Source of the DNA: Paraglomus brasilianum
Lineage: Eukaryota
DNA: 32,459 bases
Reading direction: 5' to 3'
Assembly (NCBI GenBank): GCA_910592345.1
Contig: CAJVPI010000374.1
Location: 1 to 32,459 of the forward strand
Part shown: one piece after another, positions 22,789 through 25,700 of the stretch
How positions within the stretch are numbered: the stretch's first letter is position 1
Layout: the number at the start of each line of letters is the position of its first letter
Notes under the pieces: model-generated
The model's input: only the letters and a program-made list of their open reading frames with translations
The model's database searches: none
Told to the model about the DNA's origin: nothing
Translations under genes and position numbers: made by a program

Positions 22789-25700
22789 TTAAGAGTCAAA
22801 GAGGAATTTGATCCTAGAGCCCATTGCCAAAGCTGTTGTGACTGTATCTCCAAATAGATTATTATTATGCCAGAGATTCAAAGAAGTCAGAGAAGAATTT
22901 GATTCTAGAGCCTTTGCCAAAGCTGTTGCTCCTGTATCTCCAATTTGATTATTACAGAGATTCAAAGAAGTCAGGGAGGAATTTGATTCCAGAACTGTAT
23001 CTCCAATTTGATTAGACTGGAGATTCAAAGAAGTCAGAGAGGAATTTGATTCTAAAGCTGTTGCCAAAGCTGTTACTCCTGTATCTCCAATTTGATTATG
23101 CTGGAGGTTCAAAGAAGTTAGAGAAGAATTTGATTCTAGAGCCTTTGCCAAAGCTGTTGCTCCTGTATCTCCAATTTGATTGTGCTGGAGATTCAAAGAA
23201 GTCAGAGAAGAATTTGATTCTAGAGCCTTTGCCAAAGCTGTTGCCCCTGTTGCTCCAATTTCATTATCATAGAGATCCAAAGAAGTCAGAGAAGAATTTG
23301 ATTCTAGAGCCTTTGCCAAAGCTGTTGCTCCTGTATCTCCAATTTGATTGTGCTGGAGACCCAAAAAAGTCAGGGAGAAATTTGATACTAGAGCCTTTGC
23401 CAAAGCTGTTGCTTCTGTATCTCCAATTTGATTAGCCTGGAGAATCAAAGAAGTCAGAGAGGAATTTGATTCCAGAGCTGTTGCCAAAGCTGTTGCTCCT
23501 GTATCTCCAGCTTGATTATTACAGAGATTCAAAAAAGTCAGGGAAGAATTTGATTCTAGAGCCTTTGCCAAAGCTGTTGCTCCTGTAGTTCTAATTTGAT
23601 TATTACAGAGATTCAAAAAAGTCAAGGAGGAATTTGACTCTAGAGCCTTTGCCAAAGCTGTTGCTCCTGTATCTCCAATTTGATTGTGTTGGAGATTCAA
23701 AGAAGTCAGAGAGGAATTTGATTCTAGAGCTTTTGCCAGAGCTGTTGCTCCTGTATCTCCAATTTGATTATGCCAGAGATTCAAAAAAGTCAGAGAAGAA
23801 TTTGATTCTAAAGCCTTTGCCAGAGCTGTTGCTCCTGTATCTCCAATTTGGTTATACCAGAGATTCAAAGAAGTCAGAGAAGAATTTGATTCTAGAGCCT
23901 TTGCCAGAGCCGTTGCTCCTGTATCTCCAATTTGATTATGCCAGAGATTCAAAGAAGTCAGAGAAAAGTTTGATTCTAGAGCCTTTGCCAGAGCTGTTGC
24001 TCCTGTAGTTCTAATTTGATTATTACAAAGATTCAACAAAGTCAGGGAGGAATTTGACTCTAGAGCCTTTGCCAAAGCTGTTGCTCCTGTATCTCCAATT
24101 TTATTATCTTGAAGATTCAAAGAAGTTAGAGAAGAATTTGATTCTAGAGCCTTTGCCAGAGCTGTTGCTCCTGTATCTCCAATTTGATTATACCAGAGAT
24201 TCAAAGAAGTCAGAGAAGAATTTGATTCTAGAGCCTTTGCCAAAGCTGTTGCTCCTGTATCTCCAGTTTGATTATTACAGAGATTCAAAGAAGTCAGAAA
24301 GGAATTTGATTCTAGAGCCTTTGCCAGAGCTGTTGCTCCTGTAGCTCCAATTTTATTATACTGGAGATTCAAAGAAGTCAGAGAGGAATTTGATTCTAGA
24401 GCCTTTGCCAAAGCTGTTGCTCCTGTACTTCTAATTTGATTAATACAGAGATTCAAAGAAGTCAGGGAGGAATTTGATTCTAGAGCCTTTGCCAAAGCTG
24501 TTGCTCCTGTAGCTCCAATTTTATTATACTGGAGATTCAAAGAAGTCAGAGATAAATTTAATTTTAAAATTTTTGCTAAAATTATGGCTCCAGCATTTCT
24601 AATTTGATGTCCTCTAAAATCTAATAGTAAACATTGATTTTGATAACTTTGTGCTTCCAATTGATCAAACAAAGATGATAATTGCTTGTAAAGAGTTTCA
24701 TTCAATTTGATTTTCAAGAACATGTTAACATCATCTAATGCTTTGCTGTATTGACAAAGATCAAGATAGACAGCTGCTCTTATGCCTAATATATTTACAT
24801 TATTTTCTGGCTGAATTTCTAATAATTTGTTGAAATCACTTAATGCATTATCATACTGTTTGAGTGCATAATAGATCTTTCCTCTTACTCTTAATGCCAA
24901 TTTATGATCTGGTTCAGCATTTAAAATTTTATTCAAGTAACTCAATGTATTGCCATATTGATTAACATCACATCTGATAATTTGCTGTTCCATTAAGATA
25001 AACATATTGCTTAGATCCATTCCAAATGATTCATCAAGATCATTCAATGCATAGTCATATTGCTCAAGCATGAGATAAACATGCCCTCTTAGATGTTGTG
25101 CTATTGTATCAGTTGGTTTAATGCACAATAATTTATTGAAGTCTTCTAATGCATCTGCATATTGACAAAATTTAAAATAGACAGCTCCTCTTGCAATCAG
25201 TGTGTTTGTATTATTTGGTTCAATCTCTAATAGTTGGTTGAAATCATTCAATGCCATCTCATACTGGTTAAGAATGTAGTAGACATTTCCTCTGACTTCT
25301 AATGCAAGGGCATTACTCACATCAATCTTCAATGATTGCTTAAGATCTTTAAGAGCCTGTCTGTACTCTGATTGTTGCATATAATATTTTCCACGCCAAG
25401 CCCATGCCCTGGCATTGTTGGGATTATTTTTTATGGCTTGGGTTATGTAATCATAACATTTTTGATGGTTTAAAATTTCCATATATGCAATGGCAAGGTC
25501 AGTTTGGATAGTTGCACTGTTGGGATAATGAATAAGTGCTCTTTCAAGCCATAATATTGCATTATTATATCTTTTTTTATCAAGAGCTTTCTTGCCTTGT
25601 TTGTATGCAGGATGTAGACTTCTTGGTCTCCCCATTCTTTGTAGGATAGTTTTCTTTGGTTTCATTTTAAGCAAATATAAAAACTTTGATTTTATAATAG

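What the first reader, a model, noticed from the sequence alone, without database searches (positions are those of the whole stretch)
22792..24555. LRR array with near-identical DNA units but hypervariable ligand-face residues
Seen: 21 units of 84 nt have an almost invariant scaffold. The two residues before the conserved Asn vary: QY, CI, QY, CN, WY, QD, CN, WH, WY, WH, QH, CN, CN, QA, QH, YD, QH, QH, QS, CN, WH. Lesser variation occurs at LT[S/F/L]L[N/I/G/D]L and I[G/R][D/A/T/S]. Known: these x positions of LxxLxLxxN lie on the concave ligand-binding face. Concerted evolution with focal diversification is the hallmark of fungal non-self receptors such as the HET-E WD40 arrays, which generally use WD/TPR/ANK rather than LRR repeats. 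Inference: a shuffling LRR-based recognition module.
Basis: partly seen in the sequence, partly recalled or inferred. Interest (0 to 1): 0.78.

Follow-up and report, generated by a model that had tools for sequence, protein, structure and literature searches.

The report
Variable-LRR sensor on fungal ubiquitin ligase
In a soil fungus, likely an arbuscular-mycorrhizal type, one large gene joins a RING domain, predicted to tag proteins with ubiquitin, to 21 near-identical leucine-rich repeats that differ mainly at two predicted surface residues each, so it likely works as a variable-specificity catch-and-tag protein, possibly against foreign microbes.

Summary
In detail: 21 ribonuclease-inhibitor-type LRR units (19 of 84 nt) on the minus strand, with all 21 dipeptides as listed. 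Non-synonymous change concentrates at the two residues before Asn (dN/dS about 2.7; scaffold 0.19), but a locally doubled neutral rate fits equally well. There is no NACHT/NB-ARC, so it is not an NLR. The N-domain/RING/TPR family is Glomeromycota in all 13 taxon-named records looked up, and none of 98 relatives has LRRs; three close metagenomic relatives have the fusion, with other dipeptides, one with about 8 units. The variable-site pattern itself is common: the same positions are the most variable in 54 of 78 homogeneous arrays from corals, Mortierellaceae and others, and this scan noted a similar array in another soil fungus. Best reading: a multicopy E3-ligase-like protein with a diversifying LRR binding surface, functionally like LRSAM1; a non-self target is inferred only. 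New variant of a known kind.

The parts
27603..27635 (-). Putative first exon (11 codons from ATG), followed by a GT..AG intron 27602-27484 in phase with the long frame
   Evidence: Sequence read (donor GTGAGT, acceptor TAG); inferred, no RNA support
22789..27483 (-). Main exon, 1564 codons without a stop; no Walker A motif, no signal peptide or transmembrane stretch
26110..27315 (-). N-terminal all-helical ARM/HEAT-like solenoid (about residues 57-458), no Pfam family; family seen in Glomeromycota
25867..26016 (-). Degenerate one-zinc RING domain: C495, C510-x-H512, C532-x2-C535, R536; first zinc site lost
24679..25608 (-). TPR array (about residues 626-935), not internally homogenised (best 100-aa self identity 41%)
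24568..24678 (-). TPR-to-LRR linker with first, degenerate LRR turn; shared with L003, P0230, P0237
22792..24567 (-). 21 RI-type (LRR_6) 28-residue repeats with variable residues at unit positions 13-14 and lesser variation at 9, 11, 16, 18, 19

Best explanation
The array is the C-terminal LRR solenoid of a large fungal protein that also carries a degenerate RING domain and TPRs, and it likely acts as a variable binding surface that would bring captured targets to a predicted ubiquitin-ligase module, possibly to mark foreign (endobacterial or other non-self) proteins. Shown: the frame, the domain order, the repeats and where they vary, and relatives with other unit numbers and dipeptides. Predicted: RI-type horseshoe fold with positions 13-14 at the edge of the concave sheet; RING fold with one zinc. 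Inferred: units are gained, lost and exchanged by unequal crossing-over or conversion, the scaffold is held by purifying selection, and the row of residues 13-14 sets what is bound; an older helical-RING-TPR gene family of these fungi picked up the LRR tail in one lineage; the target is non-self.
For: Scaffold dN/dS 0.19, five other exposed positions 1.0, codons 13-14 2.7, LRT against 1 p=0.008; with the pair chosen after the fact, 8 of 200 neutral simulations reach the observed value. Fold matches ribonuclease inhibitor, Foldseek E 5e-25; strand at unit positions 9-11, variable pair just after it. RING: family profile hits RNF8 at E 7e-7, then TRIM31, RMND5A, TRIM5; 59 of the 60 listed rows are RING proteins; Atlas top hit RING, 0.93; second zinc site kept in 33 of 36 family rows. 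L003 shares the TPR part (93.7% DNA) and the 3' flank but has about 8 units reading YY WD SY YH SN YS SN YT; P0230 and P0237 have the same junction with QE WN RG and QG QG QG. Units 4-7 and 9-12 are 92% identical; PHI-like test p=0.023. Many diverged contigs lie on the gene body but few on the flank, also in a run with the same species label (412 laid, 310 under 95% alike). The same LRR scaffold follows a kinase in L002. LRR plus RING as a bacteria-tagging design is known from LRSAM1 (PMC8567218, passages).
Against: A model with dN/dS 1 and twice the local rate fits codons 13-14 as well (lnL -72.33 against -72.22); codon 13 alone is not significant; recombination inflates such tests. Units do not group by locus (p=0.22), and within-array synonymous distance (0.18) exceeds that between the window and L003 in the TPR part (0.087), so homogenisation is slow or partial. 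Site incompatibility (0.40) is reached by 20 of 200 clonal simulations. The window's own RING piece gets no Pfam hit, homologue hits (17 of 22 proteins) are all below cut-off, and this copy has Gln for the family's usual Pro496. L003 carries a stop and a frameshift in its array. The same positions vary in most homogeneous RI-type arrays, which low structural constraint alone could give. Nothing here identifies a ligand.
Confidence: 0.45

Rival explanations
1. Neutral repeat turnover. The array expands and contracts by slippage and conversion in a multicopy family; positions 13-14 are simply the least constrained loop positions and collect changes, partly imported from other copies. No selection for new specificities.
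For: Doubled rate with dN/dS 1 fits equally; pS at codons 13-14 is also high, 0.53-0.57 on about one site; the pattern recurs in 54 of 78 and 56 of 80 homogeneous arrays of very different proteins; L003 is broken.
Against: Other exposed scaffold positions, on the helix side, stay nearly fixed (pN 0.026); replacements at 13-14 are radical (W, C, Q, Y, H, D, N) and need multi-step paths that skirt stop codons; only 2 synonymous changes are needed at these two codons.
Confidence: 0.28
2. A variable-substrate E3 ligase or scaffold aimed at the fungus's own proteins (proteostasis, nucleus or isolate recognition in a multinucleate mycelium, control of mobile elements) rather than at microbes.
For: Same anatomy; no signal peptide or membrane stretch, so likely cytoplasmic; most of the family has only TPRs (23 of 30 scanned); some fungal NLRs with homogenised repeats act in allorecognition (PMC10197012, passages).
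Against: Fixed self targets do not call for 21 differing dipeptides or for different arrays in close relatives.
Confidence: 0.2
3. The exact array is an assembly artefact or part of a decaying copy.
For: Multicopy family and short-read type data; one 63-nt unit and a frameshifted tail; stop and frameshift in L003; no read-level check of the array was made.
Against: No two units are identical in DNA (highest 98.8%); 1564 codons are open; the TPR-LRR junction occurs in three other records and the 3' end in L003.
Confidence: 0.07

Closest known systems
RI-type (LRR_6) arrays of NLRC3-like proteins in corals, and of LRR proteins in Mortierellaceae and Gigaspora rosea
   Same: 28-residue unit, near-identical scaffold, most variation at the two residues before Asn
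   Different: Most listed hits carry a Walker A motif (168 of 240) or a kinase (P0282); here the partner is helical solenoid-RING-TPR
Fungal NLRs with highly conserved WD/ANK/TPR repeats (HET-E, HET-D, NWD family; PMC4986451)
   Same: High internal conservation with focal variation on the binding face; differing repeat numbers
   Different: No NACHT/NB-ARC; repeats are LRR, which that survey did not find in fungal NLRs; the TPRs here are not homogenised; output is likely ubiquitin, not a cell-death domain
LRSAM1 (LRR-SAM-RING E3 ligase; PMC8567218)
   Same: LRR and RING in one chain; the LRR would select and the RING would tag
   Different: Reverse domain order, no SAM, one-zinc RING, TPRs, long homogenised RI-type array, multicopy; no homology shown, an analogy only
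Glomeromycota helical-domain/RING-like/TPR proteins (P0001, P0133, P0137, P0138, P0163, P0179), annotated as hypothetical or TPR-like
   Same: N-domain, one-zinc RING and TPRs in the same order, 24-32% identical
   Different: End in TPRs (one in a Ras domain, P0162); 0 of 98 have an LRR motif, though many are fragments
Ectocarpus ROCO and LRR-kinase repeats (PMC3341825)
   Same: Shuffled LRR units with selected sites on the concave face in candidate immune receptors
   Different: There each repeat is an exon and the partner is a GTPase or kinase; here all 21 units lie in one exon

Membership tests
RI-type LRR array (LRR_6) | 28-29 residue repeats with LxxLxLxxN | tested here: met
   (E 1.7e-100, above cut-off)
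RI-type LRR array (LRR_6) | Beta-alpha horseshoe fold like ribonuclease inhibitor | tested here: met
   Predicted model, mean pLDDT 88; Foldseek E 5e-25 to 4peq, TM 0.81 on target
Fungal NLR (STAND) | Central NACHT or NB-ARC domain with P-loop | tested here: not met
   No such Pfam hit; no GxxxxGK[ST] in 1564 aa; N-part predicted all-helical plus RING; 0 of 30 relatives scanned
Fungal NLR (STAND) | High internal repeat conservation (over 85% across 100 aa or more) | tested here: met
   13 of 66 non-overlapping 112-aa self comparisons above 85%, best 92%; my own ungapped version of the criterion
Fungal NLR (STAND) | Positive selection at repeat surface sites | tested here: inconclusive
   dN/dS 2.7, p=0.008; 8 of 200 after post-hoc choice; doubled neutral rate fits equally
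Fungal NLR (STAND) | Repeat-number polymorphism among alleles | tested here: inconclusive
   L003 has about 8 units against 21 but may be a paralogue; no genome or long reads held
RING E3 ligase | RING-fold sequence similarity | tested here: met
   Family profile to RNF8 E 7e-7; Atlas 0.93; window piece alone no Pfam hit
RING E3 ligase | Eight zinc ligands (canonical two-zinc cross-brace) | tested here: not met
   Only C495 of site 1 remains; site 2 (C510, H512, C532, C535) intact. One-zinc RINGs such as RMND5A and MMS21 are among the hits; that they bind one zinc is recalled
RING E3 ligase | E2-dependent ubiquitin or SUMO transfer | not testable with these tools
   needs an assay
LRSAM1 | N-terminal LRR, SAM, C-terminal RING | tested here: not met
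   Order is helical-RING-TPR-LRR, no SAM hit
Exon-shuffled LRR receptors (Ectocarpus ROCO type) | One exon per repeat | tested here: not met
   All 21 units lie in one uninterrupted frame

The most novel reading that the evidence does not exclude
A lineage of mycorrhizal-type fungi has built an NLR-independent immune receptor family: a genome-wide pool of interchangeable LRR units, diversified at two residues each, is bolted onto RING ubiquitin ligases and onto kinases, giving a repertoire that recognises and tags endobacteria or other intruders. This would be an LRR pattern-recognition system in the kingdom said to lack them.
Probability: 0.25. Interest if true: 0.8.

Novelty: new variant of a known kind. 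Interest (0 to 1): 0.5.

Why it matters
A survey of fungal NLRs found WD, ANK and TPR sensors but no LRRs, and cites a study that found no LRR pattern-recognition receptors in fungi (PMC4986451, passages). Mucoromycota fungi house endobacteria and have exchanged LRR and kinase genes with them (PMC10507103, passages), and repeat-protein genes respond to endobacteria in Gigaspora margarita (PMC10197012, passage). A RING ligase with a diversifying LRR tail gives a concrete, testable candidate for how such fungi could police their cytoplasm without NLR architecture. If the variation is neutral, it is one more lineage-specific domain fusion in a repeat-rich genome.

Tried and rejected
No whole genome is held, so paralogues could not be counted directly. 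No RNA holder was listed; run X17 is RNA by guess only and its 715-nt piece is a diverged copy, so nothing is claimed on expression. Depth (about 40-300 on the gene body, 3000-5200 on the unit-1 bin, 0-9 on the flank in X5 and X6) is not a copy number and is used only as a sign of many copies. No terminal inverted repeats that would mark a DNA transposon stood out in 21700-28400. The N-domain got no Pfam family, no Foldseek hit at E 0.001 or better (Ufd2 among weak rows), only generic helical-repeat matches (Z up to 13.9, rmsd 3.4, 137 aligned) and Atlas scores of 0.76; no homology to Ufd2 is claimed. A 36-row RING profile did not find the RING of P0041 or the U-box of P0268 among 240 proteins. 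The tree built without codons 13-14 gave dN/dS 17; rejected as inflated by a poorly resolved tree. Identity between units does not fall with distance (rho 0.07), so simple neighbour duplication was rejected. ORFs at 28444-28903 and four others got no Pfam hit. Ten paper searches listed no paper on this protein family or on such LRR arrays in Glomeromycota; the library lacks most subscription journals, and no supplements were read, where such families may be tabulated. PMC8778642 and PMC4771724 hold no 'LRR' or 'TPR' in the main text. No complex prediction was run.

Full report
1. Observation. The minus strand holds one open frame of 1564 codons, 22789-27483. Its last 592 residues are 21 repeats with the majority sequence LESNSSLTSLNLxxNQIGDTGATALAKA. 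Nineteen units are 84 nt, unit 19 is 63 nt, and unit 21 runs into a frameshifted remnant. Among units 2-21, entropy is 1.77 and 2.42 bits at positions 13 and 14, 1.23 at 19, and 0 at 13 of 28 positions; mean DNA identity is 88%. pN is 0.48 at codons 13-14 and 0.058 elsewhere. The changes include several transversions, and no unit has a stop although every codon used at position 13 is one step from one.

2. Selection and turnover. A codon model on a tree of the 21 units gives dN/dS 0.19 for 21 scaffold codons, 1.0 for five other variable positions (9, 11, 16, 18, 19) and 2.7 for codons 13-14; one ratio for all is rejected (p 2.5e-10), and a ratio of 1 at 13-14 at p 0.008. If the best pair among seven neutral sites is picked after the fact, 8 of 200 simulations reach the observed value; for the fixed pair 0 of 200. 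The signal comes mostly from codon 14. A model with ratio 1 and twice the local rate fits as well, so selection is suggested, not shown. Evidence for exchange between units is modest: PHI-like p 0.023, but 20 of 200 clonal simulations reach the overall incompatibility. The closest pairs are not neighbours (5 and 9, 11 and 17, 7 and 12), and units 4-7 match 9-12 at 92%, as a block duplication would give.

3. Structure. The predicted model (mean pLDDT 88) has a short strand at unit positions 9-11 and a helix in each unit, and matches ribonuclease inhibitor best. Positions 13-14 follow the strand. [quoted passage not shown] They sit at the edge of the concave face rather than its centre; the strand positions 9 and 11 vary less. 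Exposure was not computed.

4. The rest of the protein. Pfam finds TPRs at about residues 626-935 and LRR_6, and no NACHT or NB-ARC; there is no Walker A motif and no hydrophobic leader or membrane stretch. Residues 57-458 fold as a helical solenoid (pTM 0.84) with only generic ARM/HEAT-like matches. Residues 490-539 are a degenerate RING: a 16-sequence profile hits RNF8 at E 7e-7, and 59 of 60 listed PDB rows are RING proteins; the Atlas agrees (0.93). The second zinc site is kept in 33 of 36 family rows and the first is lost. Against this, the window's piece alone has no Pfam hit and the hits in 17 of 22 proteins are below cut-off. An Arg follows the last Cys, where active RINGs often have one (recalled). 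A short upstream exon probably supplies the start codon.

5. Relatives. The N-terminal 573 residues find 96 representatives. All 13 that were looked up and carry a taxon name are Glomeromycota, at about 24-32% identity; closer ones (55-88%) are unnamed fragments. So the host is likely an arbuscular-mycorrhizal or related Mucoromycota fungus. Of 30 scanned, 23 have TPRs, one has a Ras domain, none has LRR or NACHT; 0 of 98 have an LRR motif, though many are fragments. The TPR-LRR junction recurs in L003, P0230 and P0237. L003 is 93.7% identical in the TPR part and shares the 3' flank, yet has about 8 units with other dipeptides, plus a stop and a frameshift. It may be an allele or a paralogue. 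Its units do not group apart from the window's overall (p 0.22), though Cys at position 6 is in 5 of 7 of its units and 0 of 20 of the window's (Fisher p 2.6e-4, picked after the fact). L002 has the same scaffold behind a tyrosine-kinase-like domain. Contigs from two soil runs and one run with the same species label pile up on the gene body at 85-95% identity while the flank is thinly covered, which points to a multicopy family.

6. Control: is the pattern unusual? Among the 120 listed hits, 107 had 8 or more regular units; of the 78 with at least 60% unit identity, position 13 or 14 was the most variable in 54, and both were in the top three in 39. In the 120 hits it was 56 of 80. These sets are dominated by NACHT-LRR paralogues (coral where named) and are not independent, but they include Mortierella, Dissophora and Gigaspora rosea proteins. 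The pattern is thus a general property of homogenised RI-type arrays, in fungi too. The new element is the fusion to a helical-RING-TPR protein.

7. Mechanism. Most likely (0.45) the LRR solenoid presents a row of 21 variable dipeptides that sets what is bound, unit exchange reshuffles the row, and the RING recruits an E2 to tag the catch, as LRSAM1 does for bacteria (PMC8567218, passages). Anatomy and variation are shown; fold and RING are predicted; ligase activity and a non-self target are inferred. Rivals: neutral turnover at loosely constrained loop sites (0.28), a ligase for the fungus's own proteins (0.2), artefact or decay (0.07).

8. Comparison with what is known. It works like fungal NLR sensors with conserved repeats (PMC4986451, passages) and like Ectocarpus LRR receptors (PMC3341825, passages), but is a member of neither: no nucleotide-binding domain, no exon per repeat. 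It is not an LRSAM1 homologue. LRR and kinase genes are known to be shared between Glomeromycotina and their endobacteria (PMC10507103, passages). Ten searches listed no paper on this family, within a library that lacks most subscription journals. This scan noted a comparable two-residue-variable LRR array in an Endogone-like fungus and an F-box LRR array in Naegleria; neither was checked here.

9. Verdict. Real feature; new variant of a known kind; interest 0.5. The variable-residue pattern is ordinary for this repeat class. The RING-TPR-LRR architecture in a mycorrhizal-type fungus, in several copies with different arrays, is undescribed as far as these searches reach and is testable.

Noticed in passing
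window 21158-21800 (+): Spliced gene that looks like RNA polymerase I/III subunit AC19 (RPAC2), tail to tail with the LRR gene; name recalled from the translation, not searched
   Followed up: no
window 28444-28903 (+): Spliced ORF that resembles a release-factor-domain peptidyl-tRNA hydrolase (recalled); no Pfam hit on the separate pieces; a GT..AG joint 28685-28757 appears in run X21
   Followed up: partly
L002 3-692 (-): Tyrosine-kinase-like domain fused to the same LRR scaffold; Gigaspora rosea P0282 has a kinase and an LRR array with the same variable positions
   Followed up: partly
P0162 (Ambispora gerdemannii): The same N-domain and RING joined to a Ras domain instead of TPRs, so the C-terminal module of this family is swapped more than once
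   Followed up: no
window 24814-24861 and 25210: Many contigs leave the window's sequence at these points (loose ends and joints), as TPR-only paralogues or copies with other TPR numbers would
   Followed up: no
window 27663-27740: About 78 bases upstream of the gene are absent from a near-identical soil contig (X5 record 22); the window has a short duplicated stretch there
   Followed up: no
window 16366-17823 (-) and 11108-11986 (-): Long low-complexity ORFs (acidic 12-nt repeats at 16797-17105) with no Pfam family; possibly mobile-element remnants
   Followed up: no
window 22735-22790 and L003 3' end: The 3' flank is conserved and holds a pyrimidine run ending in CAG like a splice acceptor, with no clear donor upstream
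   Followed up: no
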